In this document: piece by piece, positions 24,001-62,814 of the stretch
Layout of the letters: each line of letters starts with the position of its first letter
How positions within the stretch are numbered: position 1 is the stretch's first letter
NCBI RefSeq assembly: GCF_037042905.1
Contig: NC_087252.1
Location: 3,288,001-3,352,000, forward strand
Source: Lytechinus pictus
Taxonomy: Eukaryota
DNA length: 64,000 nt
Direction: 5' to 3'
Program-made: the position numbers and the translations under genes
Notes under the pieces: model-generated
What the model saw: the letters and a program-made list of their open reading frames with translations, nothing else
Databases searched by the model: none
What the model was told of the DNA's origin: nothing

Positions 24001-24136
24001 TCTCAGTAAACAGCTTATTGCAATATTTGTCAACATCTTGATGACCAAGCGCTTACTACGCAGTATATATATATACATATATATATAATGTAGCACAATG
24101 TTGAAATCGAAATTGATTTACAGCAATGTTAATCCT

Positions 24137-24826: not shown

Positions 24827-25246
24827 AACAGTGTGTAGTGCCATATATCTATGTTTTTGTATGGTTCAAATTCGGTTGTAAGGAGATATTCTTAACTTTA
24901 TTTTTCCAAGTATGAAACCCCTTTACATTTACAATTTCTATATGAATTTTACCCCTCCCCCACTCTTACTTGACCTGGATTTGAGAAACGGCTAAAATAA
25001 AGTTGTGGGCAATGTCAACTTAATAGCATATTCAAATGAATGTTCTCTCATAACTAGCATGTCGACAATCTATTTCAGCAAGTTTCTCATGTTATGCAAT
25101 ATTGGGCATAAACTCTGTAGTTGCTTGGTCAGACAAAGCTCAACCAATTATTCAAGAGGATGGTGACCAAGCGAACATAGTATTATTGGGTGATATATAA
25201 AATCACATGTTTTTAGATGATGGGGTAAAATGTACAAATCAGGAAA

Positions 25247-27382: not shown

Positions 27383-27444
27383 CTGGAGGAAGAGAGAGAG
27401 GGAAAAAATAGAAAAAAATAATAAGTTGAATGAGTAGGGTCCTG

Positions 27445-29525
27445 GGGTGGTATTCTGAAAACGTTCTTATCTTTGTTCTTATCTTTTATCTTATCTCATT
27501 GAGATAAGAAGACGCTAAAATCATTGCAAATCGGTATTCTGAAAATCTTCTTAACGCGTTCTTATCTTTGTAAGGACTGCCTCCTTCTTATCTTCAACAC
27601 GCCCATTTTTAGGATATTACCAATCAAAATGCGCTTTATATTGGCAGTTTAACCAATAGAAGCGTTCCTTATGTCAAGAGAATATCATGGGCTCTGTGCG
27701 TACACTGTTTCTGGCGCATTGCGCGAAATAGGCATTTTATACGCAATGACTGATTATTATTTCGAGACACGTGCACAAAATGAAGAAAGAAAAAAAGTAA
27801 ATAAAGCAGGTACGAATAAAGAATAAAATATGAAGAAAGACAGTAAGTAGACAGGAAGGTGTCAGAATGAAGCAGAAATTAAAAAAAAAAGATGAAAGGA
27901 ACAAAGCAGAAAATAATGAAAGAAATAAAGAGTAAACGAAAGTAAGCAATCAAAAAGGACTTAAGAAAAAAAAATAATAAAAATAAGGAAAAAGAAATAG
28001 AACGATTATCAATGATAAAGTGAGGAAGAAAAAATAAAGACAGAAAAGAAAGAAACTTAAAGGAAAAAATGAAAAAGATTAAAAAAGGATAAAATGAAGT
28101 AATGAAGAAGCGAAAAAGAAAAAAATTTGAAAAAAAAGACAGTGTGAAAGAAAGAGAAAACGAAAGAATAAAAAAATTTAAAAAGTGAAGGAAGAGAGGA
28201 AAAGGAAAATGAAACAAAGAAATAACGATGAGAGAGAAAAATGAAAGGAAAATTAAAGCAAAAATAAAGATTACAGAAAGATAAAAAGAAAGAAAGGTAA
28301 ATTCAAATAAAGAAAAGGAACGAAAAGGGAAAATAAAAAGTCAAGAAAAGTGAAGAATGAATAAAAAAAGAAAACAAAAAACATTAATGGAAAGAATAAA
28401 GAAAAAGATTTTTTTTAATTGATAGAAGAAAGACACAGAGAGGAAAGTAAAGAAAGAGAGTAAATAAAGAATGAACGAAAAAGAATGAGCGATTAAAGAA
28501 TAAAACACAAAAAAGAAAGTAAATAAGACACAAGAGTGTCGGGAAGCAGAAATTGAAAAAAAAATGAAAGAAAGAACAAACGAATGAACGAAAAAAGAAA
28601 AAAAAAAACCAAAAATAAAAGTAAAAAAAAGAAAAGAAAAAAGAAATAAGGGGAAAAAATAATATTAAGGGAAGGAAAAAAGAAAGAAAAAGGGGAAAAA
28701 GGAAAAGCACATATAAAGACGAAAGAATGAAAGAAAAAAATAAGGAAGAAATAAAAAGATTACAAAAATGTGACGGAAGAAAGAAAAATGAAAAGAAAAA
28801 AAAGGAAAGGAAGAGAGAAAGGGGAAAGAATAATAGCAGAAATAAAGACTTATTCAAGAAAAGAAAGAAAGGGATAAAATGAAAAGGGAAAATAAAAAAG
28901 GAAGAACGATGAAGAATAAATGAAACAAAGCAAAAGAAAAGTAAAGAAATTAAAAGATTCAAAAGAATAAAACAAAAAATATAAAAGAAGAATGAACTTA
29001 AAGAAAGGAAGAAAGACAGACACTTAGAAAGGAAGAAAGACAGACAGATAGAAAGGAAGAAAAAGAGAAAATAAATGAAGAAAGAAAGAAAGAAAAAAGG
29101 GATAGAAAAAAGAGACGGGAAAATAAAGGGTGAATGAAAGAAAGGGTGGGAGGAATACTTGTGGGTACTTGTTACTACTAGTGGCCATCGATTTTAAGCA
29201 AGAAAGAACGCGGACATCGTGAGATGTGATAACCCTCTAGCTATCTTAAATATTATCATAAATATCGTGAAAGATAAGAAAGAGAAAAGATAAGAACGTT
29301 TTCAGAATACCACTTATCTTTATTTTGTTCTTATCTTTTAGCGCGCTTTTGTATTATATGCGCGAGTTATAAATTTACGCGCTCAGCATAGGAGGGAAAG
29401 CAAGATAAGAAGAAAGATAAGAACAAAAGATAAGAAAAAGATAAGAACGTTTTCAGAATACCAATTTGAGAACATGACGTAGATAAGAACAAAATTAAGA
29501 TAAGAACGTTTTCAGAATACCGCCC
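27445..29525. mobile_element. 2.1-kb non-autonomous PIF/Harbinger-like element
   Basis: TIR GGGTGGTATTCTGAAAACGTTCTTATC / GATAAGAACGTTTTCAGAATACCGCCC with 3-bp TSD CTG. Empty site in copy 1 (~8135-8140). The TIR core repeats subterminally; a purine-rich low-complexity core spans ~27780-29150. Confidence 0.85.
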
Positions 29526-31875
29526 CTGGGCAGGAGGGGAGGGAGATAGGGGACAAGAAGATAGACATGGAATGAGTAAGAAGCAAAATGAGAAAGAGTT
29601 TGACAAGATGGAAGAGATATGAGAAGTAGGAGAAGCCAAAAGAAGAGATAAGAATTAATTAGAATATTAAAAGAGGAAATGAAAAAAAAAGAAAAGGAAA
29701 GGGGAGGTGGCAAGAAGGAAGGCAAAGGAGAAGAAATTGGTGAAGAAAGAAGACAAAGGAGGTGAATAATTAGAAGCAGCGGGAAGAAAAGGACAAAACA
29801 AAAAAGTGGAGAACCGAGAAGTAGAAATATAGAGTTGGAAAAAAAAATTGTTTGTGTGTTATTTGTGATCAACTTTAAAAATATTTACAAATGGATAAGT
29901 CATTATTTTCAAGAAAAGTTTACCATTATCAAAGTGTAAAAACTGCAATAGCAAAGGAAATATAAATGTGTTACATTGTGAAAAAGACACAAATGAATTC
30001 ATGGGAGTATCCCCCTTCCCCATCCTTGGCTAATTATATGCACGCGCACGCTTTCAAACAGTGATGACGTCACAATGCAAAAGACCAGACTGTAACAGAC
30101 GATTGCCCACGGTCGGCGCGGCCGGAACTCCGCGCGCTGCATGCATGCGCTGGCTAGCTAGCTCGCACCGTACCATACAGCACTGCACTAGCACTGAATG
30201 CTGCGCTGCATGACTGTACTGTACGAGTATGGCCAGGGTTGCATGGCTAAACTGCGTGCAGACATCGGAATCCGATGCAATCTATCTAGCTGATCTAGCA
30301 AAAAGTAGCGTAATGAAATTTAGTCGATATGATGGAATTGCTAAGAGGCATTTTAATGATAATTTCAACACATACCAAATTTCTATGCATAGGTCTTTAC
30401 TATTTTTTAGCAAGTTAAAAACAGTCAAAATTTGAGTCAACACCCCGCACAACTCTAAGTCTAAATCTACACAGTACACATCTTCCGTAGACAACATCCG
30501 CACAACACACATTAACACATACATCTTCATAGACAACAGAGAGAGAGCGCGAAAAGTGAGGATGGTGAATGTCAGAGTTCCATGAAAGATTACATTATAT
30601 GTAAAACAGTTCAACAAAACATTTCTACATGTGAAGGATCTACAGGATGAAAATATCACTACTTACCAGGGAATGTGTACTTGACCGGAGACGTAAAGTT
30701 GAATTCAAAACAACAGCAGTTCCGACGGCACTTCTTATCGATCTGACACTCGAAATTTTGCAAGAATTTATGCTCCGCGCCGAGTAAGAGGCGCATGCGC
30801 GTGTGACGTGTTGTATCCCAGAATGCATTTCGCGTGCTCAATTACAGTAAATTACTGTAAAGTTGATCTCCCAAAAAAAGAACTCGAATGATTGCTGTAA
30901 ATTACCGTGAACCGCCTGAATAATACGGCAAATTACTGTAAAATCATCATTACAGTATCTTACTGTTAAAATTTACATCAATTTACCGTACAAATTACAG
31001 CAATTTTTTACAGTGAACTTTTGGATTCCTGTTGGAGTCTAGGGTCAGAGCACGTACGTACTTGTTTCTAATGCAGTATATAAAGCGGGATTTTGCCAAA
31101 AGGGGGTGGGGCGCAGAATGTTTTCATCCACGTTTCCCCGATGGGCCGCTAAAAGCCAATTTTTGCTGTTGGTTTATAGAGGAGCAGTCCCAACTAAAGA
31201 CTAAAGTTTCAAGTGCATTTAATCAGCTTTATTCTTACAAACAAGATAGGCTATCTCACATTGCCTAAATCGATGAGCGCGCGAAGCGCGAGCTCTACTT
31301 TTTGGATAACTGATGCATTTAGACTAAAGCAATGAACATTCTTAGCAGTTTTTGCCAGTATATGCGAGCGCGAATCGCGCGCTGAATTTTTAATATATTG
31401 ATGGTACATTCCGAGTAACAATACAAATATGATTTTTTTATTAAAATGTCATGAACAACAATGAAGTGTAACTAAATTTGTATTTAAATTTCAGCTAGAT
31501 GACTTTACCCTCCTGCAAAATAAGTTGAATTGCATGTATAGTGATATGCACAGATGAATGGTATTGGAATGCATGTTAAGTTACCTTAATCATGCACTCT
31601 GAAATAACCTGAGAACACTAAGATTCATTACCTCAAATCAAGTTTGTGAACTGTTTGGGAAGTATTTATAAGAGTGGTGTGCCATATTTTCTTAGAAATG
31701 TGAAAAAAAAATTGTGCATGTAAATGTATACTAAAATTATTGACCCCCTAAATAGAAAAAATTAACAACAACAACAAACACAAAAACAGAATAAAATTAG
31801 CACTTCATACGGAGAAATACGATTGATTCCATTTTGTTTGCATAAGACTGCATTATAATTGTTCATCATTACACA

Positions 31876-36200: not shown

Positions 36201-39200
36201 ATTCATTATATGGGATGGCAAGTAAAATTTCAAACAACGTATCAATAATCATGTTAATCTCATAAATAAAAAAAATAATAATACTGCGGTCTACAGCCAA
36301 TGACCTCCATCTACTCATGCGCAATCTGTAATTACGAAATGGCACATTCAGTAATATTTAGCAAAGGAAATAAAATAAAAACAATAATAACCTTGTGCTT
36401 TTTCATCACTTGCCAGACTTGGATTACTTTTCTCAGGAGTTGTCGCAAGATATCTGATTGGGTGAGTTGTTCCTACATATTTTGGGGGAGTTGTTCCTAT
36501 ATATTTTGGGAAACAAAAAGAGTGCTTAATGTTAACATTCAAACTATTATCAACTGTATTAAAAAATACACTTGACTGCATTCGTCATGTTACGTCATTA
36601 CTTGTGTACAGGATCCCTTAATAATCAAGGGGAACCTATGCATTGCTACATGTATATTGAAAATCGAATAACATAGATATTGCAAAAAATGTCTAATAAA
36701 ATTAAATCCTGACCTAAGATGGAACAGATTGTTTACCATTTGAATTTCGCACTCGTTTTAAGAACATAATGTTGGAATTCATTATCATGAAACATATCTC
36801 TCTAGACAAATATTTCGAGAGCGAATCACTAGCGGATATTTGATTTTACGCATTTATACCTGTAAATGAGACATCCGCAATTACCAGCTCGTATCAACTA
36901 AATGCCATAAACGCAGGCGTATATTTTGTATAAACTGACCCCCAAAATAAATGCAATTTTAGCGATCGTTTGTAACAATTCATAAAAAATACTATTCATA
37001 CACTTGTAAAACAAATAATACTGGTGCAATATGAATAATGCAAATTCCTGTATCAATCTCTGTCGCTTGTTTACATAATTATAAACAGGAGAAAAACTGG
37101 GAATGATTCGAGGAAAAAAAGGAAACAAACGAAAAAATAAAATATTTTCATATTAGCAAAGGCGACAATTAGAACAGAATTACCTGTTTACTGTACATCT
37201 CTTCTGTGAAATATATGATAGAAGGGAAATTACTGTAAAATACATGTAGCTTTCATGTGACCAAGGAAAAAGAATTGGGAGAAAGAAGGGAACAAAATAT
37301 TCACTTGTGGCAAATGACGGTACAAAATTACAGCAGTAGAATTTCGATATTTGTATTAAATTAAAAGTGGAACAAAAAATAATGTTGTTAATATTCATTG
37401 AATTCCAAAATGATAATGTAGAATGAAATAAATACACGTAATCTCTTTAATACAGGGTACAATCTAATTGTCATGCCATGGCTAAAAACGAATTTTCACA
37501 CTTCTTTGAAAAAAAAATAATTGAATGATTACCTTCATTTCTTATGATGACTGATGTTGTTATATGATGAAACGATGCATTCGCCACCCTACACATGACC
37601 ACAAGCTCCTCAGTACCGTTGTATGATAATGGCGTAAAGAAGATAGTTCGCGAAGGCACACTTAGTCGTCCATCATGGGCAACATTTTTATTCTCTTGTA
37701 AATAGTCATAAAAGATTATTCCGACTGAAATATTCCATTCCAAATACACTGGTGGTTTCACTGATCGATTGGTTTTGCAGACTAGTGTCATATTCTCCCC
37801 TTCTCCAACCGTAAGCGTTTCTTGCTTGTGTAGAGTAGCATTATCCATCCCGTCTATTAAGATCAACCCCTCCGGTGGAACTGAAATCATTCAAATAAAA
37901 TGATTGTTTTATTTTTCACCATGCATAACAAGAATGAATTGATAATGATAAAAATTATAATAATAACAATAGCTAGTTTTTTTATACAGCGCTATTCACA
38001 TAGCGGCGCAAAGCGCATTTCAACACATTATTACATACGTATGCATAGCAACGAAGCGTAAACTTTTTTTCTTTTTGAAGCGCAGGATCCCTTGACCATA
38101 TCTAAACCGGGGTGCTCGGAGCCCTTTTCCCTCTAGGATTCGCGTAATATTTTCACCGCGCGAAATATACTGACCGTGCCGTTGGAGGACTTTATACTTT
38201 CAAGTCTTGCACATCTTTTGGGACCAAATTTTTGACACCCGGGTACGCGGTTCTGAAATTACACTACATTTTGTATAAACTGCATGTCACACCAAAAATT
38301 GCTCAAAAACATGATTCCGTGTACAATATCAATGCAAAGTGTGTTTACAACAGAAAATCATAAATTTATGATTATTTTTAGTTTTCCTGGTCTAAATGTA
38401 TATATTCTATGCTGTCTATGATTTCAAGAGTCCCCGGCAAAGATCATCGAAAAAAAAAGAAATACATAAGTAATTACAAAAAAATTATATAAATTTGATG
38501 AGAATACCACCATGACCACAACGAGTTTGTACACCACACAATATAACATTTGGAGCTTTATTTGGGGAGATAGAGAAAAACGTATAATTTTGCACACTAA
38601 TTACGCATAGATTAGCATAATCAATAAATAGCAAGTTGCATGAAATAAATAAAAATAGAATTTTGTAGATCATATCCTAAACAAGTTGCGTGCCAATTTT
38701 TGGCACGTTTGCGAGGTCGGCGGCCGAGATCTCAAGGGGGCTTGCTAGGCACCCTCCGCCCCTGCCACATGATAATAATCCGGCCTAGATAGGGTTAAAA
38801 AAAACATCACAGGTAAGTAATTCGTTTGAACTAAAACTAGAATGTGCCGATTTTGAATTCATTGTTTGCTAATATTTAAAGTATAATGATGGAAAGAATA
38901 AAATTTTGCGTGTGTGGTGAGGTCTGTTCCCTTTTGTTATCTTTCTCAATATGTTAACTACTATGAGCAACGTATTTATTTATTTATTTATTTATAAGTC
39001 TTTTAGTAGGGTGACTCCATCAGTAATTGATAAACTGTTGTCCTTGGAGGCCCTACAACAAAAATAGAAACATAACAAACATGGGTATAAATAGTTTACA
39101 ATGTAAGTTGAGACAAACAAACTGTAAAGAAAAGAACAACACAAAGGGCCAGTTTATAAATCAAGACTGGGACCTTAATTGTGATTAGTTATAAAGCTCC

Positions 39201-40627
39201 TACATGTATAACATAATATAAATTTACCATGGGGGAGTGTTTCATGACACAGGTCCCTGTTTATTCATATTTTCTTTATGATATGTAATTGAAGTATCCA
39301 CTTTTCAATTCAATTCAAGTTTATTTCCACATCTGATTAAAAACACAAGTACAAATTCATATGCAAGTAGATATATACAATAAGAAAACATTAAAATGAA
39401 ACATATTCAGTTCATAATCATAATGTGGTGGGAATTGACAAAGGCCTATTAGGGTTATTCATATAGGTAATAAAATTTACATAAAATGTTTCTTAAATAT
39501 ATATAAAATATAACACAAAACAATAGAAAAATTATAGACACACATGGAATTCAAAAATATAAGTGTAAATGAAATAACAGAAGACAACCAGACATTCTGG
39601 AGCCCACCCCCAGGCAATATTTTGTTAACTATTCTAGGATTCATTTTCAACTAGGTATTTTTTAAGATTTCTTTTAAACATATTCGAAGTAGGGCATATT
39701 TTGATTTCTTGTGGTAAATTGTTCCACTTTCACCGTTGAATTCAAATAAAACCTATTGTTTTTTTTTCGTTGTTTGTGTTTTTCAAAGTATGTATGACTG
39801 CTATAGAATTCTACTAATTCGTTTGAAAGGAAAATACTGATCTTGATTTATGAGTGTTCACTTTTTGTTACTAGGAACTTAGAATGTATATATTTATGTA
39901 ATGCATGTATTATGTAATGTATTATGTATGTATTTATGTAATGCATGTATTTATGTAATAAACGAATATGCTACTTCTTAAAAAAATGTATAACGTCTAC
40001 CATTCACTGTCAGGTTGATTCTGCACTCACTGCGGTAGTTGTTAGACAGCATGACAGCAGTGTATATACCCTCGTTGTCAAGTGAGATATTGTTCATTGT
40101 CAAAATGCTGACCGGTTGATGATTAACTTCAAGTGTGTGCATCGTTGTATTTATTTGACCGTCATTCTGCGTAGTCCATCTGAATAACACTGAGCCGTCA
40201 CTCACCCAGGAAATAAATTTTAATTGTTCGGTTACGGTGGTTAATATGCACTGGAGACGTACGTCGTCCCCAAAATTTGCTTCCTTATTTATATCTAAAA
40301 AGTAGAAATTATTAAAGAGAAAGACAAAAAATATGTAAGCGATTATATGAGTTTATTATGTACACAACCACTATTGTGAGCATTTATTAATAGCTGCTCC
40401 ATGACGGCCAAAAAAACGTAAACATAATGTTACTGAATATCGATGTAATGAACCGTGCAAGAATAGACATTTGTCAATCATGATACAATAATTTACAGGA
40501 TTATTGTGATATGACACAAAATGGGAATCTGTCATTGAAACGGCGACTCAATCTATTTATTCCAATGCTTACCTTGAGAACAAAATACCGATCCGATGGT
40601 GATAACCAAAATAAATAAATGCCACAT
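32949..40627 (-). CDS. Paralog B: apparently intact Ig-superfamily type I membrane receptor, ~447-455 aa
   Basis: Exons 40573-40627 (MWHLFILVITIGSVFCSQ), 40001-40294 (Ig1), 37533-37880 (Ig2), 36392-36496 or -36472 (T/P/S stalk), 35318-35437 (TM), 35166-35177, 33813-33904 (PLYANST), 32949-33290 (EYMEM...SVITTYL*). All GT-AG, phases compatible, no internal stops seen. Confidence 0.85.
33813..33904 (-). CDS. Paralog B cytoplasmic exon (AGDADTADGVAVTAMHQKDSNNEPLYANSTM)
   Basis: 92 nt, same splice sites as 5655-5746. Confidence 0.75.
34226..34625. mobile_element. Interspersed repeat related to 5081-5500, opposite orientation
   Basis: Shared segments such as GGACAAAATCGTATGGATCCAAAATTGCACGATG on opposite strands. 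Absent from the equivalent site in A. Confidence 0.6.
34809..34938. mobile_element. 130-bp MITE with 15-bp perfect TIR and 5-bp TSD
   Basis: CAGGGGCCGCGGAAC...GTTCCGCGGCCCCTG flanked by TTAAA. Empty site CCGTTAAAAGTG in A (~6265). Confidence 0.8.
35318..35437 (-). CDS. Paralog B transmembrane exon
   Basis: 120 nt, phase 1-1; DNCALLRIVIYILGGSLGAMILGLVAVTVSHKCLRHNTDR. Confidence 0.8.
36392..36496 (-). CDS. Paralog B putative stalk exon (two in-frame acceptors 24 nt apart)
   Basis: (GTTPPKYV)GTTHPIRYLATTPEKSNPSLASDEKAQ, 105 or 81 nt, phase 1-1. The donor CAAG|gttatt is weak. Confidence 0.5.
37533..37880 (-). CDS. Paralog B Ig domain 2 exon
   Basis: 348 nt, phase 1-1; TLVC...LEW...VMCRVAN. Confidence 0.85.
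38096..38794. mobile_element. piggyBac-like MITE (degenerate) in intron 2 of paralog B
   Basis: Right end CCGGCCTAGATAGGG|TTAA; left end TTGA|CCATATCTAAACCGG (imperfect TIR, mutated TTAA). Confidence 0.5.
39304..39790 (-). mobile_element. LINE 3'-end fragment
   Basis: Minus strand reads WNNLPQEIKICPTSNMFKRNLKKYL, followed by a 3' UTR ending in AATAAA and a (TTGAA)n tail. Confidence 0.6.
40001..40294 (-). CDS. Paralog B Ig domain 1 exon (V-like)
   Basis: 294 nt, phase 1-1; GDDVRLQC...ISW...NISLDNEGIYT...CRINLTVN. Confidence 0.85.
40573..40627 (-). CDS. Paralog B first coding exon (signal peptide)
   Basis: ATG at 40627, donor CAAG|gtaagc. Confidence 0.8.
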
Positions 40628-46870: not shown

Positions 46871-48505
46871 TTGACCTTGCCCCAGATTTCAAGGCACTGC
46901 ATCTCCATGTGAACAATAATCACATCATGTAGGGCAGCCATTCTCATTTACTTTTTTTGAAGCTCCACATTTCTTGTTGAGAATCTGTAATGCGCCACTA
47001 TCCATTACGCAAACCAGCAAAGTATTGCGGAGGGGGTCCAGAGGCACCTGTTTGGGGTCGAGGGGGCAGAGCCCCCAGAAGTTTTGGAGTTATGACGACT
47101 TTTAAATTGTCCAGAGGGGATCTAATTAATATCAAGAGAAGAAATACAAATGCTAACAAACTACACAATATTTATTAAAATTGAAATTAGTGACTTTTTC
47201 ACAACATACCAATGTTAACACTAGTTCAGAGCAGTGGCGTAACAGGGGTCGGTGGCCAGGGGGGGCAAGAGCCAAAAATTTCCCGGTCATATCATGGTAT
47301 GAACAGGCGTATGGTGTAATGAGGCGACGATTTTGAGATGGCCATATGTTCTGAATCAGGCAGAATTTATCTTTTTAAAAAAATTGTGAGCGAGCGAAGC
47401 GAACGAGCAAATTTTTTTACATTTTTAATACAAAAATCCAATTTTGAGATCGATTTTGACACGATATCCAGAGAATAATATAATTCACCCTTCTCTCTTT
47501 CCATTCCCTTTTTGTGGTCTGTATATGCCACTGTGAACAGGATTCTTTGCAGCAGTAGCGTGAAGAGTTAAAAAACGAAAGGCGCAGTATGGCGCAAGTG
47601 CTAAAAAGCTGCTTAATATATGTCCCGAGCGAGCGAATCGAGCGAGAATAAGAAATCACATTTTCATGAGAATTTAACTTTGAGATATTTTGTTACATTA
47701 TATTCAGTAAATAAAATCATATCCTACACTTTTATTTAGCTTTTCTTTCCTCCTTTTTTTCTTGGTTGTAGAACTTTTGGGGGCCATGGCCCAACCCTTC
47801 CTTATTCATATCCGGCAGTGCTTTGCGGTTGGGGTCCGTCTGAAACCCCCGGAACTTCTTGATATCAAAGCCTTTTATACCTCGCAGATTGCCGCTATTT
47901 TTAATCAAATCACGAGTATATACAGAATATAGCTTTTACACAACACATTTATTCAACCCAGTTGAACCAAATATTTCAAGGGGGCAAAACATAGCAATGT
48001 GGGAAAATTTGTAAAAAGGCGCTGGAAAAAAATGCCTATTGAAATTAAATTTTAATTATGTGATAACACATTTCATTGTTTCCATTCATTTCATTACACG
48101 TTGTCTCCTATAATTTCTTTTATTTCCTCTTGAGTGTGGAACCAAGACCCCCCCCCCCCCCCGCTTGTACGCCAGTGATTGAACGTAAAGCTTAATGTAG
48201 GAAGGGTCCCTACAGGGGGGCGTTATAGAGCCATTTGAAGGTTATACACTACTCAAAAAAAAGTTAAGGACCACTTTTTAAAACGTACATAAAGATTTTA
48301 TACAAGGTGTTTTATTTCTGGAAATACCTCAGTACAACTGTCCTAAATGTCCTTAAACACGCTGTAATCAATTTCACGCATGGGTGGTTTCAGTTGTTGC
48401 ACAATGTCTCTCGCATCACTGCACATCCTGAAAAGTGGGCCCCGAGGGGTATCAGCTACCGACATGAAGTGGTAAAAACGAATGTCTGAGTGTCTTTCAG
48501 GCAGT

Positions 48506-49549
48506 TCAGTAACGAGTGTGACCACCTCCTGCAGCAATAACGGCTTCACAGCGCTGTCTCATGGAGCTGATGAGGCGATTGATGTCTCTGACGTCCAGTG
48601 CATCCCATGCAGCCTCCAGAGCCACACCCAGCTGCTGCAGTCCAAGTGGATGGGCTTCGAGCTGCTCGAGACTCCTCCCCATCATGTCCCAGACGTGCTC
48701 TATCGGGTTTAAGTCCGGGGACCTCGCTGGCCACTCCATACGCTCAATCCCCTGGCCCTCAAGGAACTCGGTCACCACCCTAGCTCGGTGGGCACGGGCA
48801 TTTTCATCCATGAAAATGATGTTTTGTCCCACATTTTCTGCAAATGGCACCACTATAGGTTCAAGGACCTCATCCCTGTACCTCACTCCTGTCATTGCTC
48901 CCCCTGGGACCACGTAGAGACGAGTACGGTTGGCGTAGGTGATGCCTCCCCACACCATGACGCTGCCTCCCCCATAACGGTCATGTTCTGCAATACAGGG
49001 GTCTGCAAATCTCTCTCCTGGTCGCCTCCAGACTCTCGAACGTCCATCATTGTGGTCAAGGGAAAATCTGCTCTCATCTGTGAACAGAACTCTACGCCAT
49101 TGCTGTCTGGTCCATCTGTTATGCTCCCGGGCCCAGTTGAGACGAATTCTTCTGTGAGCAGGGGTGAGTGGGACACACTGAGCTGGCCGTCTGGCATGCA
49201 TATTGGCTCTGTGAAGTCGGTTACAGATTGTTTGAGTGGAAACAATCACTCCAGTTGCTGCAGCGAAGTCATTGTTGAGGCGGCGTGCACTGTGAAAGCG
49301 GTTGCGGAGGCTGAGATTCGTCAAGTAGCGATCATCTCTAGGGGTTGTCGAAACTGGTCGGCCACTGCGGGGTCTCTCGGAGTATAGCCCTGTCTCTCGG
49401 TGTCTTTGATTTGCTCTGCTAATGACACTGTGTGACACGCCCATCATTCTGGCTACTCTTCGCTGACTGAGGCCAGCTTCCAGCATCCCTAGGGCTCTGG
49501 CTACATCTGTTTCACTTAGGTGGTGTCTTGGCATTGCTGTTGTAGGCAA
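48506..49549 (-). CDS. Tc1-family transposase, full length (likely ATG at 49533, MPRHHLSETD)
   Basis: Paired HTH region, RSGRP AT-hook, WRRVLFTDESRF, GGGSVMVWG, FMDENARAH, WPARSPDLNPIEHVW, C-terminal GGHTRY. Confidence 0.93.
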   Translation of the reverse strand: MPTTAMPRHHLSETDVARALGMLEAGLSQRRVARMMGVSHSVISRANQRHRETGLYSERPRSGRPVSTTPRDDRYLTNLSLRNRFHSARRLNNDFAAATGVIVSTQTICNRLHRANMHARRPAQCVPLTPAHRRIRLNWAREHNRWTRQQWRRVLFTDESRFSLDHNDGRSRVWRRPGERFADPCIAEHDRYGGGSVMVWGGITYANRTRLYVVPGGAMTGVRYRDEVLEPIVVPFAENVGQNIIFMDENARAHRARVVTEFLEGQGIERMEWPARSPDLNPIEHVWDMMGRSLEQLEAHPLGLQQLGVALEAAWDALDVRDINRLISSMRQRCEAVIAAGGGHTRY

Positions 49550-49925
49550 GTTGTTGATTGTACAGACTAAAGACGGAAAATGCTTTGGAAGACACTTGTC
49601 TTATGGCCCACTGCAATGATGCCAGAGACATCATGAAAGAACTGCATGTGTGAAATGATGTCATTGTGTTTGATGGCATTCTGGACAGCTGTATCTTGGC
49701 ATTGCTATTGTCAGCAAGTTGTTGATTGTAGAGACTAAAGACAGAAAATGCTTTGGAAGCCACTTTTGTACGGGCACATGGCAATGATGCAAGAGACATG
49801 AAAGAACTGCATGTGTGAAATTGATTTCATTGTGTTTGATGGCATCCTGGACAGCTGTATCTTGGCATTGCTGTTGTCAGCAATTTGTTGATTGTAGAGA
49901 CTAAAGACAGAAAATGCATTTGAAT
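49527..49925. repeat. ~165-168-bp tandem repeat (~2.4 units) in the spacer of the Tc1 palindrome
   Basis: TCTTGGCATTGCT.TTGT...GACTAAAGAC.GAAAATGC at 49527, 49695 and 49860. Each unit includes the transposase start-codon context. Confidence 0.8.
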
Positions 49926-49939
49926 CCACAGCCCTAGGG

Positions 49940-50920
49940 ATGCTGGAAGCTGGCCTCAGTCAGCGAAGAGTAGCCAGAATGATGGGCGTGTCACACAGTG
50001 TCATTAGCAGAGCAAATCAAAGACACCGAGAGACAGGGCTATACTCCGAGAGACCCCGCAGTGGCCGACCAGTTTCGACAACCCCTAGAGATGATCGCTA
50101 CTTGACGAATCTCAGCCTCCGCAACCGCTTTCACAGTGCACGCCGCCTCAACAATGACTTCGCTGCAGCAACTGGAGTGATTGTTTCCACTCAAACAATC
50201 CGTAACCGACTTCACAGAGCCAATATGCATGCAAGACGGCCAGCTCAGTGTGTCCCACTCACCCCTGCTCACAGAAGAATTCGTCTCAACTGGGCCCGGG
50301 AGCATGTCAGATGGACCAGACAGCAATGGCGTAGAGTTCTGTTCACAGATGAGAGCAGATTTTCCCTTGACCACAATGATGGACGTTCGAGAGTCTGGAG
50401 GCGACCAGGAGAGAGATTTGCAGACCCCTGTATTGCAGAACATGACCGTTATGGGGGAGGCAGCGTCATGGTGTGGGGAGGCATCACCTACGCCAACCGT
50501 ACTCGTCTCTACGTGGTCCCAGGGGGAGCAATGACAGGAGTGAGGTACAGGGATGAGGTCCTTGAACCTATAGTGGTGCCATTTGCAGAAAATGTGGGAC
50601 AAAACATCATTTTCATGGATGAAAATGCCCGTGCCCACCGAGCTAGGGTGGTGACCGAGTTCCTTGAGGGCCAGGGGATTGAGCGTATGGAGTGGCCAGC
50701 GAGGTCCCCGGACTTAAACCCGATAGAGCACGTCTGGGACATGATGGGGAGGAGTCTCGAGCAGCTCGAAGCCCATCCACTTGGACTGCAGCAGCTGGGT
50801 GTGGCTCTGGAGGCTGCATGGGATGCACTGGACGTCAGAGACATCAATCGCCTCATCAGCTCCATGAGACAGCGCTGTGAAGCCGTTATTGCTGCAGGAG
50901 GTGGTCACACTCGTTACTGA
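49940..50920 (+). CDS. Tc1-family transposase, N-terminally truncated second copy (lacks ~16 aa)
   Basis: Same protein from MLEAGLSQ onward, with two amino-acid differences (C/R, N/V). Confidence 0.88.
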   Translation: MLEAGLSQRRVARMMGVSHSVISRANQRHRETGLYSERPRSGRPVSTTPRDDRYLTNLSLRNRFHSARRLNNDFAAATGVIVSTQTIRNRLHRANMHARRPAQCVPLTPAHRRIRLNWAREHVRWTRQQWRRVLFTDESRFSLDHNDGRSRVWRRPGERFADPCIAEHDRYGGGSVMVWGGITYANRTRLYVVPGGAMTGVRYRDEVLEPIVVPFAENVGQNIIFMDENARAHRARVVTEFLEGQGIERMEWPARSPDLNPIEHVWDMMGRSLEQLEAHPLGLQQLGVALEAAWDALDVRDINRLISSMRQRCEAVIAAGGGHTRY

Positions 50921-52052
50921 ACTGCCTGAAAGACACTCAGACATTCGTTTTTACCACTTCATGTCGGTAGCTGATACCCCTCGGGGCACACTTTTCAGGA
51001 TGTGCAGTGATGCGAGAGACATTGTGCAACAACTGAAACCACCCATGCGTGAAATTGATTACAGCGTGTTTAAGGACATTTAGGACAGTTGTACTGAGGT
51101 ATTTCCAGAAATAAAACACCTTGTATAAAATCTTTATGTACGTTTTAAAAAGTGGTCCTTAACTTTTTTTGAGTAGTGTAGATGAAGAGCCCTTACTGCG
51201 TGGGGTCCGGGAGCTTATTTGCATAAAATTGAGCAAGCTTATAGTTATAGCACAATGTTGTATATGCAGTCCATCTTTCTTCCCGCTCTTTATTTTCTAT
51301 CCTCGGCAGTGCCCGGTCATGTTATTGAGTTTTTTTCTTGTCCCTTTTCTTTGTTTTCCAATTTAGCTTTTCACTAATTCCATTCTACCTTCATTTCCCG
51401 CTATTGTTTGGCATTTTGTCATCTTTTCATTTATTTCCCATCACGCTATTGCATTACATAGGCCTATTTCGGAATGATTTGTTCTTTCTCAAATATTGTT
51501 TCGTTCCTTTCCCGCTTTCCTTCCTTTTCCATTAAAAATATTGTTTTCTTTTCACTTTTCCCTTTCCTTTTCCCCTTTCCTTCTTCTTTCCCTTTCTTTC
51601 TCCCTCCCTTTTCTTTTTTTCCCGTTTTTTTTATTTTCCCGCTGAAATCCGCCAGGGGGGGGGCAACTTGCCCCCCCTGCCCCCCCCCCCCGCCTGTTAC
51701 GCCACTGGTTCAGAGTGACGTAATGAGTAAAAAAAATGAGGGGCTAGATATAGCAGCTGGAGCAAAAATTTTGATCTTTTCAATAACAAACCCTATATTT
51801 TGACATAATATGAAGAAAATAATACAATATTCCACTCTTTCCCTTTCCTTTTCTTCTTTTTTTTTCTTGGCCGTAAAACAGTTGGGGGCCCCCAATCGCC
51901 ACCCCCATCTGTACGCCAGTGGCTGAAGTTTACATTCCCCGATTTTGCAAGGGCTGAAAATCAGGCGTTGAACTGCACTAACGCCCCAAACTGCCCCTAT
52001 CTCTCTACTAGACTAGACCCATTCTGGAAAAAGAGGCCTGTATAAACTTTAA

Positions 52053-56041: not shown

Positions 56042-56825
56042 TTAAACTCAAGACCATATTGGTCTTGTCTATACAACTCTCGTGCAGTATCATTCATTCA
56101 GTTCGTGTTAAGCAAGAGTGCATGCAGGCAATCACGGCAGGCAACACATCTGAGCATATTTCACTTTTACAACTTCGGATTTTAATCGGCTTCGGAAACA
56201 AAGTTTCTGCTTGTTATATCCAAAATTCATAATATTTTATTGATCAGGATGTTATTTGATTTGATGTATAACTCTTAACCAAACGTTTACTCTGGAAATG
56301 CAAAATTACTCGCCGTAGAAATAGAAATCCTACAAACAAGGCTTTCAAATAACTTGTGTGGCACATAAACTTAGTACAGCTTAAATAAAAATGAGCACAC
56401 CATCGATCCTTCATACTAGGGGTTATTTATCGAGTGCTAAATTGGGCAAAATTTGAAAAGAGAAATCAATTTAAAGTGTCAAGTAAAGAGTTTTTGTCTT
56501 CTCTTTGTATGAAAATGATTAACTAATCCTTATTTCCAGCCCAGGTTACTGGTAGATATATTTTTTTCTTCCCAATTTTTCCTTTTTTAATACTTTTTTT
56601 TTATACCGGCTCCCAAGCGCTACTCCGCAAGGCTTGGTGCGCCACAAGTGGCACGCGCGCCACCATTTGAGAATCCCTGATGTAGGGTATCAGTTTAAAG
56701 AAAATGAAATGCTTTATTCATTAATATTAATTAAACATTGATATTTGCTAAAACCGAGGAGAAATGACCGACCAAAGTCAGATTTCTAAACTGTTTTCGT
56801 GAGGAGTATATATATATATATATAT

Positions 56826-58545
56826 AATAATCACAAAAGGTTTAGTAAATGCCGTAAAAATAAAATCGTAGATTTTAAAAGGAGCATAGCTCTCAAAAAT
56901 GAAAGGTAAAGTCACACTCTTCGTCAGTGCCCATGATGTGACAAAAAAAAAGAGAATTCAAAATCCGTTTCTGAAACAGTCGTGAAAAACACGTCTATTC
57001 ATGAGCATACGGATTGTGAAACTCACCTTTCAAAGAAATCAATGCGCTGAAGATGGAGGAAGCGCACTGTAAAAGACGCATCTAAAGACGCGTTACCATG
57101 ACTGCAAGATGACAATGGCGAATCTCCGGCTCCAAAACAGGAAAATCTGAAAAGGGCCTCACCGCCAACAGTCGAAGTTTAGCAGTAAAAAGTACCTGAG
57201 TAAAATAGAAATAGTCTGCTTCGGCATAAGGAATAAAATAATCACAAAAGGTTTAGTAAATGCCGTAAAAATAAAATCGTAGATTTTAAAAGGAGCATAG
57301 CTCTCAAAAATGAAAGGTAAAGTCACACTCTTCGTCAGTGCCCATGATGTGACAAAAAAAAAGAGAATTCAAAATCCGTTTCTGAAACAGTCGTGAAAAA
57401 CACGTCTATTCATGAGCATACGGATTGTGAAACTCACCTTTCAAAGAAATCAATGCGCTGAAGATGGAGGAAGCGCACTGTAAAAGACGCATCTAAAGAC
57501 GCGTTACCATGACTGCAAGATGACAATGGCGAATCTCCGGCTCCAAAACAGGAAAATCTGAAAAGGGCCTCACCGCCAACAGTCGAAGTTTAGCAGTAAA
57601 AAGTACCTGAGTAAAATAGAAATAGTCTGCTTCGGCATAAGGAATAAAATAATCACAAAAGGTTTAGTAAATGCCGTAAAAATAAAATCGTAGATTTTAA
57701 AAGGAGCATAGCTCTCAAAAATGAAAGGTAAAGTCACACTCTTCGTCAGTGCCCATGATGTGACAAAAAAAAAGAGAATTCAAAATCCGTTTCTGAAACA
57801 GTCGTGAAAAACACGTCTATTCATGAGCATACGGATTGTGAAACTCACCTTTCAAAGAAATCAATGCGCTGAAGATGGAGGAAGCGCACTGTAAAAGACG
57901 CATCTAAAGACGCGTTACCATGACTGCAAGATGACAATGGCGAATCTCCGGCTCCAAAACAGGAAAATCTGAAAAGGGCCTCACCGCCAACAGTCGAAGT
58001 TTAGCAGTAAAAAGTACCTGAGTAAAATAGAAATAGTCTGCTTCGGCATAAGGAATAAAATAATCACAAAAGGTTTAGTAAATGCCGTAAAAATAAAATC
58101 GTAGATTTTAAAAGGAGCATAGCTCTCAAAAATGAAAGGTACTCAGGTACTTTTTACTGCTAAACTTCGACTGTTGGCGGTGAGGCCCTTTTCAGATTTT
58201 CCTGTTTTGGAGCCGGAGATTCGCCATTGTCATCTTGCAGTCATGGTAACGCGTCTTTAGATGCGTCTTTTACAGTGCGCTTCCTCCATCTTCAGCGCAT
58301 TGATTTCTTTGAAAGGTGAGTTTCACAATCCGTATGCTCATGAATAGACGTGTTTTTCACGACTGTTTCAGAAACGGATTTTGAATTCTCTTTTTTTTTT
58401 TCACATCATGGGCACTGACGAAGAGTGTGACTTTACCTTTCATTTTTGAGAGCTATGCTCCTTTTAAAATCTACGATTTTATTTTTACGGCATTTACTAA
58501 ACCTTTTGTGATTATTTTATTCCTTATGCCGAAGCAGACTATTTC

Positions 58546-58552
<7 letters not shown>
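56826..58552. mobile_element. Penelope-like/retrozyme-like array: 3.2 tandem 411-bp units plus one inverted unit, within (TA)n
   Basis: Units start at 56826, 57237, 57648 and 58059 (partial, to 58141); inverted full unit at 58140-58552. (TA)n on both flanks. Each full unit has a degenerate hammerhead motif. Confidence 0.7.
58410..58460 (+). ncRNA. Degenerate minimal type I hammerhead ribozyme motif (also on the minus strand at 56882-56932 and +411, +822)
   Basis: GGGCA-CTGACGA-A-GAGTG...CATTTTT-GAGA-GC-TA-TGCTC. Stem I, stem II and the palindromic stem III are present, but the core GAAA reads GAGA. Confidence 0.5.
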
Positions 58553-58590
<38 letters not shown>

Positions 58591-58605
58591 TGCACGCACA
58601 CGCGC

Positions 58606-58661
<56 letters not shown>

Positions 58662-60629
58662 TGTGACGGAATCGCTGGGCGGGGTGGTTGGGTGGTCCGC
58701 CGGCAGCTCGCTCTTGTCAGGATGCCTGCCGCCGGCGGGTGTCTTGCCACGTCGATTTCCAAACTTTTAGTCGCGGATCCGTTTGGCAGAGATATACTGC
58801 CGCAGTTGACACTTGCACAAGCCTCGAACCAGCCAGTTCCACCACCAGGCAACCTCCAGACGGCTACACTCTTTATTTGTCAGCTCCTACAGTTCACCCG
58901 ACCATATGCATCTAGCTTGTGTAGTTAAGCTCCCCGACCATATGCATCTGATTCCTGTAGTTAAGCTCTTACGACCATAGGTATGGGTTCCTCTGTAGTT
59001 AAGCTCCCACGACCATACCCATGGACTCTGCTTTACATGTAACTTCTTCCGTCGTCTGCTCCGTACTGCAACCACGTCTGCATTCAGTACAGCAACCATG
59101 CACGTCTAATTTCGTACTACAACCACGTCTGTTCAGTACCGCAACCACGTCTGTTCAGTACCACGACCACGTCTGAGTCCGTACTGCAACCACTGGCATC
59201 TGTTCAATACCGGAAACTACGTCTGGTTCCTCGACCATATTCAGTGGCGTAACAGGCAAGCTGCCCCCCCCCCCCCCCTCCCTGGCGGAGCTCACCGGGA
59301 AAATAAGAAAAAACGGGAAAAACAAAAAAAAAGGGGGGAAGAAAGGGAAAGGGAAAGGAAAAAAAAAGGGGGAAGTGGAAAGGGAAAAGAAAACTAAGAA
59401 AAAACACAAAAAAGGGAAAACGGAAAGATAACGGGAAAAGCAAGGAAAGAAGAACAAGTGAGAAAGAACAATTCTCCCCGATATACAAATACATTAGCAT
59501 GATTAGTAAGACAGGGAAATAAATTAAAGATGAAAAAAAAGCAAACAAAAGCGGGAAATAAAGGCAGAATGGAATTAGCCAAAATCTAAATTGGAAAATA
59601 AAGAATAGGGACAAGATAACGTACACTACCGGGCTGCCGAGGATTGAGATAACGAGCGGGAAGAAAAATGGATGAAATATAGCATAATGTCGTATGAAAG
59701 TCTATCATAATCTTGTTAAATCTCCAAAGGCTCTGTCCAAGAGTCAAGACCCCGTGCAGTGGGGGCTCTTCATCTGTAACCTTTAATGGGTACTATAACG
59801 GGCCCCTATATGGACCCTTCCTGCATTAAGCTTTACGTTGAAGCACTGGCATACCGGGGGGTGGTTCCACAGCCAAGGGGAAATAAAAGAAAATAAAGGA
59901 GGCAGCGAAATGACATGAATGAAAAAAAAATACATGACATGATATTTGCTATAATGATGTAAAAATCGATCACATAATTAGAATTTCATTTTAACAGGCC
60001 ATTTTTTTTCTGGCTCGCTTCGCTCGCTGGCGACTTTTTACAAATTTCCCCATATTTGCTATGGTGTGCCCCTCACAATATTCGGATGATTACGATACAC
60101 AACTGCATTGAATTTATGTGTTGTGTGAAAGCTAAGTAAATATACACGCAATTTGATTAAAATTAGTGGCCATCTGTAAGGTTTAAAATGGCTTTGATAT
60201 CAAGAGGTTCCGGGGCTCTACCCTGGACCCCACCCATAAAGCACTGTTATATGGATGAGTTTGGACCATGGCCCCCAAAAGTTCTACAACCAAACAGAAA
60301 AAATGAGGAAAGAAAGGAAAGTGTATTATATTTTTCTGAATATCACGTTAAAATCTATCTTCATGTTAGATTCTCATGAAAAGGTGATTTTTTATCTCGC
60401 TCGCTTCGCTCGCTCGGGACCTATATTAAGCTACTTCTTGCCACAAGTGCCATACTCGGCCCCCTCGAGCATATAGAGCTTCGCCCTGATGCTCAAAATC
60501 ATAACAAAAAAATGTTCACCGTTATGTAACATTATGTCAAAATCTATCACAAAATTTGATTTTTGCAATAAAAATGTCAAAAAATTTTGCTCGCTCGCTC
60601 GCTTTTATATATATATATATATATATATA

Positions 60630-61464
60630 ATGAGATGAGGCAAGGCCAACTCAACAGATGACGCAGGACACCATTATTTGCTTTAGCTTTCGTCTTTTAA
60701 TTGAGACTTCGTCAGAAGCGTCTGAAAAATATAAGGAGATACAACATCCAAGTTTGTTTTGCACATCAATGAATTATCACCAAGTTGAATATATTCCATA
60801 ATGACAAATTAATGAATGAACAGATAAATAAAGTAATGAATAATACATAATTAATTCAATTAAAATAATAATGATATAAATGAAAAAGACATACCTGTAA
60901 TTACAGACTATTGTGATAGTTAAGTATGACCGTATCCTATCTCGTTCTTTAGGAAAGTGGCAAAAATTGCAAAAAGAAAACATTGGTTGCTAGGTGGTGA
61001 AAGCGCAAAGCGCATTGGTAATGCGCATAAAATTTATGTCACAATGAGTATGAATATTCATGATATTAGATATCGTAAGCTAGCAACCAATGTTTTCTTT
61101 TTGCAATTTTTGCCACTTTCCTAAAGAACGAGATAGGATACGGTCATACTTAACTATCACAATAGTCTGTAATTACAGGTATGTCTTTTTCATTTATATC
61201 ATTATTATTTTAATTGAATTAATTATTTATTATTCATTACTTTATTTATCTGTTCATTCATTAATTTGTCATTATGGAATATATTCAACTTGGTGATAAT
61301 TCATTGATGTGCAAAACAAACTTGGATGTTGTATCTCCTTATATTTTTCAGACGCTTCTGACGAAGTCTCAATTAAAAGACGAAAGCTAAAGCAAATAAT
61401 GGTGTCCTGCGTCATCTGTTGAGTTGGCCTTGCCTAGCGATTGGTAGAAGTAAACTTATCATCA

Positions 61465-61470
<6 letters not shown>
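60630..61470. mobile_element. Penelope-like inverted pseudo-LTR pair in a (TA)n tract
   Basis: 356-bp arms 60638-60993 and 61080-61435 (one mismatch seen), 86-bp spacer, (TA)n flanks, and a hammerhead motif in each arm. Confidence 0.75.
61354..61393 (+). ncRNA. Minimal type I hammerhead ribozyme motif (mirror copy at 60680-60719, minus strand)
   Basis: GCTT-CTGACGA-A-GTCT-caattaaa-AGAC-GAAA-GC-TA-AAGC. Stem I GCUU/AAGC, intact CUGANGA and GAAA cores, stem II GUCU/AGAC, palindromic AGCU stem III. Confidence 0.7.
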
Positions 61471-61503
<33 letters not shown>

Positions 61504-62814
61504 CCCGATACGCCATATCGCCCCCTCAAACTTTTTGCCTTATGACGCCATTATCTGTTCCATGATATATGACCGGGAAATTATTGGCTCTTGCCCCCCC
61601 TGGCAACCGACCCCTGTTACGCCGCTGGTATGGGTCCTTCTGCAGTCAGGCTCTCACGACCACACCCGTTGGCTCTGCTCTACATGTAGTTCCCACCGTT
61701 GTCTGCTCCGGACCTCCGACCGTCTGCTTCAGACCAGCAATCATCCGCTTCAGACCAACCCGTCTGCTCCGGACCACCAGCCGTCTGCTCCAGGCTCCGA
61801 ACCGTCCGCCTCCAGACTACCAAGAGAGCAAGCCCTGGTATAGTCTCTTGCTGGCGTGCAAAAGACCCAACACACAAGGAAATCTAACCACAGTCGTCGC
61901 CTAGGACTAGAGATCCATCCTAGGTTTCCCCGTGGAAAGACATGCGAACGATCAAATAAATCATTTCGATCGCATCCACCAACTTTATTTATTGGATAGC
62001 GAATCCGAATCAATCTGCATACTTTACGTGCAATGCCACCCGTGGGCGCCGTATTTTAACAGATTATTGGCAATGCCACACAAGCACACAATCTTAACGT
62101 ACTTGTGCATTAATTATACATTTTCTGTTAAAGTTAACCTCTGCTACAATCTTAGATTAGCTATAACTTTGCTCTCCGAAATCGGATATGCATGAATGAC
62201 ATATCATATTAAAGCATTTATTTAGATCAAGCTAGTGATAACCACAATAACCAGTTAAACATCTCCAGTAAATTGTTATACAACAAAAACGGTCCAAAAC
62301 ATGCATAACTTTCATGTTGTTATCTACGTCATTATTAGTGTAGAAACATGCATGTAGTATCGCCAGCTACGACAAAATCATTATAAATCAACCAAAAATA
62401 ATTTTCTACACACGAAATAAAACCCATTTCGTGACAATATATATAAATTATGCGTGAGTGTGTCTGAGTACATCATATTCATGATTACAAAGTGTGCTTA
62501 GTACAATAGAGCTTTCTTGGCGAAAAAAAAAGATATTTTCGGCTTGTCAATCGTGCTCGCAATATTTCATGGGTGAGATATGAATTTTATGAGACACTGA
62601 CAAGGGGTACTTTTGCAGGTCACTATATTCATGATATTAACATTTTCAGCTTATATAGATATAAACAATGAACGTGTTTATGTCTACGCAATTGTACCAT
62701 CATGAAAAGTTTAACAAAAGTATATAGCTCGATTACCATACCATTATTTTGGAATGAAATAGATAATTTATAGGTGCAAATTTTCTGGTAACTTAAGGTG
62801 GGCTAAATGCATGG

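What the first reader, a model, noticed from the sequence alone, without database searches (positions are those of the whole stretch)
56807..58660. 411-bp tandem-plus-inverted array with a hammerhead motif per unit: candidate retrozyme or Penelope pLTR multimer
Seen: three apparently identical 411-bp units and a partial fourth, then a switch at a TA microhomology (58140-58141) to one inverted unit, all embedded in (TA)n with no coding capacity. Each unit has a minimal type I hammerhead layout with a palindromic stem III, but GAGA for GAAA. Established: Penelope-like elements have tandem/inverted pLTRs with minimal hammerheads, and metazoan non-LTR retrozymes are tandem few-hundred-nt hammerhead repeats that yield circular RNA. 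Inference: a recent rolling-circle-type reverse transcription product of a small (circular) RNA.
Basis: partly seen in the sequence, partly recalled or inferred. Interest (0 to 1): 0.7.

Follow-up and report, generated by a model that had tools for sequence, protein, structure and literature searches.

The report
Penelope-type tandem repeat, broken hammerhead ribozyme
A 411-base non-coding unit sits as identical head-to-tail copies plus one inverted copy inside a TA repeat, the pattern that Penelope-like jumping genes leave; its family carries a core change that likely disables the built-in self-cutting ribozyme, so it likely spreads without self-cleavage.

Summary
In detail: 3.2 identical 411-bp units (56826-58141), a TA microhomology, one inverted unit (58140-58550, one mismatch), (TA)n on both sides, no ORF, and a minimal hammerhead layout beyond chance (0 of 3000 shuffles). 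New here: one end has a 34-nt tail that the other lacks, the signature of Penelope-like elements (PLEs). In public runs the unit is a multi-copy family with the same two 3' ends into (TA)n, the same head-to-tail joint and other inversion joints. The core change GAGA is A14G, the standard inactivating mutation, and it is family-wide (under 5% GAAA in the deep DNA run). Stem II is also weak. So this is a short non-autonomous PLE, laid out like a retrozyme, with a likely dead ribozyme. Copies most likely arose by repeated reverse transcription of one unit with priming from both target strands. No autonomous partner, cleavage or unit-length RNA was shown. The scan earlier noted similar ribozyme-free tandem families on other pieces of this genome (unchecked). 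Known kind, modest twist.

The parts
56807..56826 (.). Left (TA)10 target microsatellite, abutting the tail-less 3' end (site A)
56826..57202 (-). Terminal unit of the tandem arm, 377 nt, lacking the 34-nt tail; hammerhead core begins at 56927
57203..57613 (-). Full 411-nt unit (377 nt plus 34-nt tail); hammerhead core begins at 57338
57614..58024 (-). Full 411-nt unit, identical; hammerhead core begins at 57749
58025..58141 (-). 5'-truncated fragment, unit positions 295-411 (3' half of the hammerhead plus tail), 117 nt
58140..58141 (.). TA microhomology at the head-to-head inversion joint
58140..58550 (+). Inverted arm: exactly one full unit, positions 1-411 with tail; one mismatch at 58400
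58410..58460 (+). Minimal type I hammerhead layout: stem I 58410-58414 with 58456-58460, CUGACGA 58415-58421, unpaired A 58422, weak stem II 58423-58447, GAGA 58448-58451 (A14G at 58450), palindromic AGCU stem III 58451-58454, site after 58455
   Evidence: A14G inactivating
58517..58550 (+). 34-nt tail between the two inferred RT start sites, A (58516) and B (58550)
   Evidence: loose ends into TA behind 58515 (10 contigs) and 58548 (8 contigs) in run X3
58551..58660 (.). Right microsatellite: (TA)15, CA-rich tract, (TA)11

Best explanation
This is one young insertion of a short, ORF-less repeat family with PLE-type ends, likely copied into a (TA)n tract by the reverse transcriptase and endonuclease of an autonomous Penelope-like element, and likely without help from its hammerhead, which carries the A14G change across the family. 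Inferred steps: the endonuclease nicks both strands of (TA)n. One nick primes at site A (unit position 377), the other at site B (position 411), which leaves the 34-nt tail on one end only. The B-primed copy runs exactly one unit, to position 1. The A-primed copy runs 377 nt, then repeats the same unit twice more and part of a third time, most likely by jumping from position 1 back to site B over a TA overlap. The two cDNA ends anneal at TA and are filled in, giving the head-to-head joint. My odds: PLE-mobilised non-autonomous element about 0.8; ribozyme dead in cis about 0.8. For the multimer, given the first: reiterative jumping on a linear unit 0.45, copying of a read-through transcript of a donor array 0.35, a circle 0.2.
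For: Shown: anatomy, 34-nt one-sided tail and TA joint; no ORF. Family level (4 of 24 listed runs laid on 445 nt): 794 contigs in DNA run X3; head-to-tail joint 58550 to 58140 in X1 (1 contig), X3 (3) and X15 (4); two discrete 3' ends running into TA; 4 opposite-strand joints among the 15 of 24 joints shown, at varied places; 5 contigs whose loose letters before position 1 end like the tail (agreement 0.59). GAAA under 5% in X3 and absent from the X1 contig. All copies that cover them carry the T at 58345 and 58485, where X3 has C in 99% and 96% of depth and X1 has C, so the array came from one unit recently. Stem II is marginal (about 0 kcal/mol in two registers) and the hammerhead helices have near-zero probability in a folded dimer segment. 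Literature: tail, inverted copy and microsatellite bias define PLE insertions, non-autonomous head-to-tail PLEs exist (MRC1), and ribozyme-free clades proliferate (PMC8557442). A PLE protein nicks and extends both strands, starts at two sites that bound the tail, and does not need ribozyme cleavage in vitro (PMC11167929). A14G abolishes cleavage (PMC4889925, PMC3505972).
Against: No autonomous partner was found: no genome is held, and two metagenome scans gave 0 and 8 loci, the 8 unrelated. None of the 4 runs covers 58112-58126, so this locus's inversion joint and its copy number are not confirmed independently. A14G was tested in other hammerheads, not this one; PLE hammerheads can be protein-assisted and some natural core variants cleave. 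RNA runs X24 and X15 have 13 and 5 G>A places, not all shown (61 of 101 rows hidden), so a GAAA relative there is not excluded. Stem I of the intact-core neighbour is also improbable in the fold (0.006), so the folding argument is weak. The exact one-unit inverted arm is a single case: none of the 4 other inversion joints shown lies at position 1, and one round on a circle would also explain it.
Confidence: 0.65

Rival explanations
1. A working retrozyme. Tandem transcripts are cleaved to monomers, either because A14G is rescued by protein or because an intact GAAA core from a related element cleaves the unit in trans through the palindromic stem III dimer. The monomers circularise and are rolling-circle reverse transcribed by a PLE.
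For: The substrate half (palindromic AGCU, CUA site, 5-bp stem I) is intact. Unit size and 39% GC fit retrozymes. The unit folds better than shuffles (z -4.2; circular z -3.9 to -4.5). Identical copies and an exactly one-unit arm fit a circle. The tandem joint is in 4 contigs of X15, which may be RNA.
Against: A14G in over 95% of X3 depth; weak stem II; no place where many molecules begin or end; in raw RNA run X24 only 175 of 12.9 million reads laid, 0 of them 99% alike, 89% running on into unlike sequence, none with the tandem joint (a cDNA library can miss small circles). 3 of 21 control windows also reach z -4 or lower. The window's intact-core element has a different stem I and an unrelated sequence.
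Confidence: 0.15
2. These are terminal repeats of a longer autonomous PLE. A truncated head-to-head pair inserted, and the tandem grew afterwards at DNA level by local duplication and unequal crossing-over.
For: Li et al. discuss this satellite route. Most PLE insertions are 5'-truncated. X3 depth is highest around the 3' half. The neighbouring element at 60606-61499 is such a truncated pair.
Against: The same tail-to-position-1 joint recurs in 3 of 4 runs and in several sequence variants in X3; independent local duplications would have varied break points. The loose letters shown before position 1 are tail-like, not an ORF body (18 of 248 loose ends shown). The array ends exactly at site A on one side and site B on the other.
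Confidence: 0.12
3. The unit is real but the copy number or the inversion at this locus is an assembly artefact.
For: Tandem units are identical; no laid run holds the inversion joint; PLE ends are known to trouble short-read assemblies.
Against: The head-to-tail joint exists in 3 of 4 runs. The ends fall on the two family-wide 3' sites. The inverted arm differs by one base. The geometry matches the published PLE pattern and is repeated by an unrelated family 2 kb away.
Confidence: 0.07

Closest known systems
EN+ Penelope-like elements, pLTR structures (Craig et al. 2021, PMC8557442, passages; Arkhipova et al. 2013, PMC3846280, passages)
   Same: Partial tandem, adjacent inverted copy head-to-head, 30-40-nt tail on one end only, microsatellite target, minimal hammerhead near the 3' end.
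   Different: No RT/GIY-YIG ORF; the whole repeating unit is 411 nt; the hammerhead core is mutated family-wide.
Non-autonomous PLEs with multicopy head-to-tail insertions, e.g. Chlamydomonas MRC1 (PMC8557442, passage)
   Same: Short, ORF-less, head-to-tail multimers with PLE-type ends.
   Different: Animal host, and a relic hammerhead; similarity to an autonomous partner's 3' end could not be tested.
Animal non-LTR retrozymes (Cervera and de la Pena 2020, PMC7229834, parts 2-4 of 6; Li, Clavereau and Pollet 2026, 10.64898/2026.07.22.740005, parts 1-3 of 5)
   Same: Tandem units of 150-450 bp, under 50% GC, type I hammerhead layout in each unit, proposed to be PLE-derived; 8 of 9 Xenopus dimers tested did not cleave.
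   Different: Core is A14G and of the minimal PLE type; no abundant unit RNA seen; the insertion shows PLE tail and inversion.
Minimal hammerheads of metazoan PLEs (Cervera and de la Pena 2014, PMC4209133, parts 1-2 of 4)
   Same: 4-5-bp stem I, unpaired base between 9 and 10.1, G at 10.1, palindromic 15.2-16.2, copies on opposite strands a few hundred bases apart.
   Different: G10.1-U11.1 instead of G-C, a G.U-rich stem II, and GAGA for GAAA.

Membership tests
Autonomous EN+ Penelope-like element | ORF with RT and GIY-YIG endonuclease | tested here: not met
   Longest stop-free stretch 69 codons; 0 Pfam families in 6 frames
Autonomous EN+ Penelope-like element | Partial tandem plus adjacent inverted copy | tested here: met
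   other inversion joints in X3
Autonomous EN+ Penelope-like element | 30-40-nt tail at one end only | tested here: met
   34 nt; two 3' ends into TA in X3
Autonomous EN+ Penelope-like element | Insertion bias to microsatellites (Neptune, Naiad, Chlamys) | tested here: met
   Both ends in (TA)n; TA loose ends in 10 and 8 contigs of X3
Non-autonomous PLE (MRC1 type) | ORF-less short unit in multicopy head-to-tail insertions with PLE ends | tested here: met
Non-autonomous PLE (MRC1 type) | 3'-end similarity to an autonomous family of the same genome | not testable with these tools
   No genome held; metagenome scans blank or chance
Minimal PLE hammerhead | Stem I of 4-5 bp, unpaired base after A9, palindromic stem III | tested here: met
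   0 of 3000 shuffles
Minimal PLE hammerhead | Intact core CUGANGA...GAAA and G10.1-C11.1 | tested here: not met
   GAGA and G-U; G>A at 58450 under 5% in X3
Animal non-LTR retrozyme | Tandem units of 150-450 bp, GC under 50%, no ORF | tested here: met
   411 bp, GC 0.389
Animal non-LTR retrozyme | Complete hammerhead motif in at least two consecutive units (Li et al. criterion) | tested here: not met
   A14G in all 4 complete copies
Animal non-LTR retrozyme | Abundant unit-length linear and circular RNA | tested here: inconclusive
   175 of 12.9 million reads, no end pile-up, no tandem joint in X24; tandem joint in X15, whose RNA status is a guess. Library type can miss circles.
Animal non-LTR retrozyme | Highly self-paired monomer | tested here: inconclusive
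   z about -4, but 3 of 21 control windows do as well
Animal non-LTR retrozyme | Self-cleavage in vitro | not testable with these tools
   Needs a bench assay
tRNA-bearing tandem units noted elsewhere in this genome | tRNA gene or Pol III boxes in the unit | tested here: not met
   ARAGORN 0 genes in the window; 0 box matches to recalled patterns; no tRNA family in Rfam

The most novel reading that the evidence does not exclude
A natural knock-out: a still-spreading family of hundreds or more copies, fixed for the textbook dead-hammerhead mutation, whose multimers are written by a Penelope-like RT that repeatedly jumps from the 5' end of a linear 411-nt RNA back to its own start site over a TA overlap. 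PLE tandems and 'retrozyme' arrays would then need neither self-cleavage nor circular RNA, and position 1 would be the RNA's 5' end.
Probability: 0.3. Interest if true: 0.62.

Novelty: new variant of a known kind. Interest (0 to 1): 0.37.

Why it matters
How PLE tandem and inverted insertions form, and whether the hammerhead and a circular RNA are needed, is stated as open (PMC8557442). Retrozyme arrays are usually explained by ribozyme cleavage, circularisation and rolling-circle copying (PMC7229834). A young, internally identical array from a family fixed for A14G, with both PLE start sites visible, is a natural test of that model. The architecture itself would not surprise a PLE specialist, and ribozyme-free PLE clades and non-cleaving retrozyme dimers are already reported.

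Tried and rejected
Own genome: not held, so no census and no partner search. Rfam: no hammerhead or tRNA match; the hits are microsatellite or chance matches below gathering score. Metagenome contigs: 0 loci for an exact 22-mer; 8 loci for a degenerate hammerhead pattern, all 8 without similarity to the unit beyond the pattern (best E 0.49) and without TA runs, rejected as chance. The look-up of sequencing runs: no RNA holder listed on record; 20 of 24 rows hold part of the stretch, none half of its words. Coding remnant: 0 Pfam families in 12 frames, 6 of this unit and 6 of the neighbour. tRNA or Pol III module: none. A 56-nt GT-AG intron candidate at 58316-58371: no such joint among the 15 of 24 shown, dropped. 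Relatedness to the neighbouring hammerhead element: no blastn hit, and the alignment does not pair the cores. Strong folding as a sign of a circular RNA: not specific. A private GAGA mutation: rejected. Earlier scan notes: 0 look-alikes by sequence, 0 near, 0 by words. Literature searches for a family-wide A14G or inactive-hammerhead retrozyme, or for template jumping as the source of PLE tandems, found no such report; the library lacks most subscription papers, and Lunse et al. on PLE hammerhead variants was not held and may list position-14 variants. The supplements of the Li preprint were not seen.

Full report
Observation. The window has exact period-411 identity from 56826 to 58141, 3.2 units, then one inverted unit at 58140-58550 with a single mismatch at 58400. 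The arms overlap by the TA at 58140-58141. Left is (TA)10; right is (TA)15, a CA-rich tract and (TA)11. There is no coding capacity: at most 69 stop-free codons and 0 Pfam families in the unit's 6 frames. A minimal type I hammerhead layout is complete in 4 copies. My descriptor found it in 0 of 3000 shuffles with a relaxed GANA core (1 of 3000 with GAAA), and elsewhere in the window only in one other element. Rfam did not detect it.

Anatomy in the hammerhead strand. The tandem arm (minus strand) reads: positions 295-411, two full units, then positions 1-377 into (TA)n. The inverted arm (plus strand) reads positions 1-411 into (TA)n. Both 3' ends point outward, and one has a 34-nt tail that the other lacks. 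Craig et al. (PMC8557442, passages) give partial tandems, an adjacent inverted copy and a 30-40-bp tail at one end as the marks of PLE insertions. Arkhipova et al. (PMC3846280, passages) show the same with a 31-bp tail, and that pLTR sequences alone suffice for mobilisation in trans. Frangieh et al. (PMC11167929, main text) show that a purified PLE protein nicks and extends both strands of AT-rich DNA, starts at two sites that bound the tail, and inserts equally well with dead-hammerhead RNA.

Family evidence. No genome is held. A run search listed 24 runs, 20 holding part of the stretch; I laid 4 of them on 58112-58556 at 85% likeness. In DNA run X3, 794 contigs lie on the unit, with summed depth of about 1,000-50,000 against 13-38 for the 8 contigs listed. 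That suggests hundreds to thousands of copies; the tool warns that this is no copy number. The head-to-tail joint (back 411) is in X1 (one self-closing 440-nt contig), X3 (3 contigs and variants) and X15 (4 contigs), not in X24. Loose ends run into TA behind 58515 (10 contigs) and 58548 (8), the two sites seen in the window. Four opposite-strand joints at other places are among the 15 of 24 joints shown. One X3 contig goes back from 58512 to 58152 with unknown letters between, which is compatible with a tail-less 377-nt joint but is weak. No run covers 58112-58126, so this locus's own inversion is unconfirmed. I do not know whether organism A or B is the window's species.

The ribozyme. GAGA at 58448-58451 is G12-A13-G14-A15.1, that is A14G (numbering as). 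A14G 'completely abolished' cleavage in PMC4889925 and is the inactive control in PMC3505972 (passages). X3 has exactly one G>A place at 5% or more, and it is 58508, so A at 58450 is under 5% of depth among contigs at least 85% alike; the X1 contig has no G>A change. The other change counts for X3 agree with that threshold. Of 7 T>C places in X3, 6 are shown and none lies in the stem II arm. Stem II is marginal, +0.2 and -0.4 kcal/mol in two registers, against -2.8 for the neighbour's. Against this reading: 61 of 101 difference rows are hidden, so a GAAA relative in the RNA runs is possible; natural core variants sometimes cleave (PMC3088659, passages); PLE hammerheads can be protein-assisted; and the substrate half is intact, so an intact core could in principle cleave it in trans as a dimer (inference).

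RNA. Raw RNA run X24 gave 175 laid reads of 12.9 million read; none was 99% alike, 89% ran on into unlike sequence, and no place had a pile-up of ends. These look like old copies inside host transcripts. X15 holds the tandem joint but is only guessed to be RNA. Neither result tests for small circles. The unit folds better than its shuffles (z about -4), but so do 3 of 21 control windows.

Mechanism. Shown: the geometry, the two family-wide 3' ends, the single unit boundary, the family-wide core change, and that every copy covering them shares T at 58345 and 58485, which are 1% and 4% of X3 depth and absent from X1. The array therefore passed through one unit recently. Inferred: a PLE protein primes at site A on one strand and site B on the other; the B copy stops at position 1; the A copy repeats the unit; the two ends anneal at TA. 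Because the joint between units is site B followed by position 1, and the inverted arm ends at position 1, the simplest account is that position 1 is the RNA's 5' end and the enzyme jumps back to its start site, where TA gives a 2-base overlap. A read-through transcript of a donor array fits almost as well, but only moves the single-unit step back a generation. A circle also explains the one-unit arm, but lacks an evident way to be made. Which clade supplies the enzyme is unknown; (TA)n bias is described for Naiad and microsatellite bias for Neptune.

Comparison and novelty. It works like a non-autonomous PLE and is laid out like an animal non-LTR retrozyme, which Li et al. (preprint, parts 1-3 of 5) derive from PLE terminal repeats. 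It fails the retrozyme criterion of complete hammerheads and the PLE criterion of an ORF, and meets the tested criteria of MRC1-type non-autonomous PLEs. Ribozyme-free proliferation is known for Naiad and Chlamys, and 8 of 9 Xenopus dimers did not cleave. Searches found no report of a family fixed for A14G, within a library that lacks most subscription papers. Earlier scan notes (unchecked) call the genome a sea urchin's and describe other 334-407-bp tandem families with PLE-type ends and no ribozyme; this unit has no look-alike among them and no tRNA module. Verdict: real, a new variant of a known kind, interest 0.37.

Noticed in passing
window 60606-61499: A second, unrelated PLE-type remnant between (TA)12 and (TA)16: 356-nt inverted arms with one mismatch, a CTAG palindrome at the arm ends, a 32-nt tail on the right arm only, and an intact GAAA minimal hammerhead in each arm (61358 plus, 60715 minus). 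A 173-nt GT-AG intron candidate (61179-61351) ends just before stem I, as described for D. virilis Penelope.
   Followed up: partly
run X1 laid on window 58140-58550: A run with a different organism label holds only one 440-nt self-closing contig, 99% identical, with alleles at 58247 and 58338 that the window shares but that are 1-2% of depth in X3. It could be a related species, a mixed sample or a recent transfer; not resolved.
   Followed up: no
window 6627-13841 and 21749-31024: A large inverted duplication in several blocks at 96-100% identity, e.g. 9920-12629 with 22977-25686. Recent segmental inversion-duplication or assembly effect.
   Followed up: no
window 48256-51170: Two 1250-nt arms, 99% complementary, each with a long stop-free frame (364 and 340 codons) that looks like a Tc1/mariner transposase (recalled motifs, not searched), around a 166-bp tandem.
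   Followed up: no
window 17048-19075 and 37471-40352: Two paralogous pairs of exon-like frames that look like Ig domains (recalled, not searched), about 20.5-21 kb apart.
   Followed up: no
window 1-1165: A 42-bp tandem array of 27.8 copies that is stop-free in one frame for 207 codons.
   Followed up: no
window 58662-59250 and 61500-61840: GC-richer stretches with short tandem repeats (36-38 and 22 bp; 21 bp) begin directly after each right-hand (TA)n tract; possibly other TA-targeting mobile elements.
   Followed up: no
window 58316-58371 (and the matching place in each unit): A strong splice-donor match and a nearby acceptor would give a 56-nt intron in the unit; no such joint among those shown.
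   Followed up: partly
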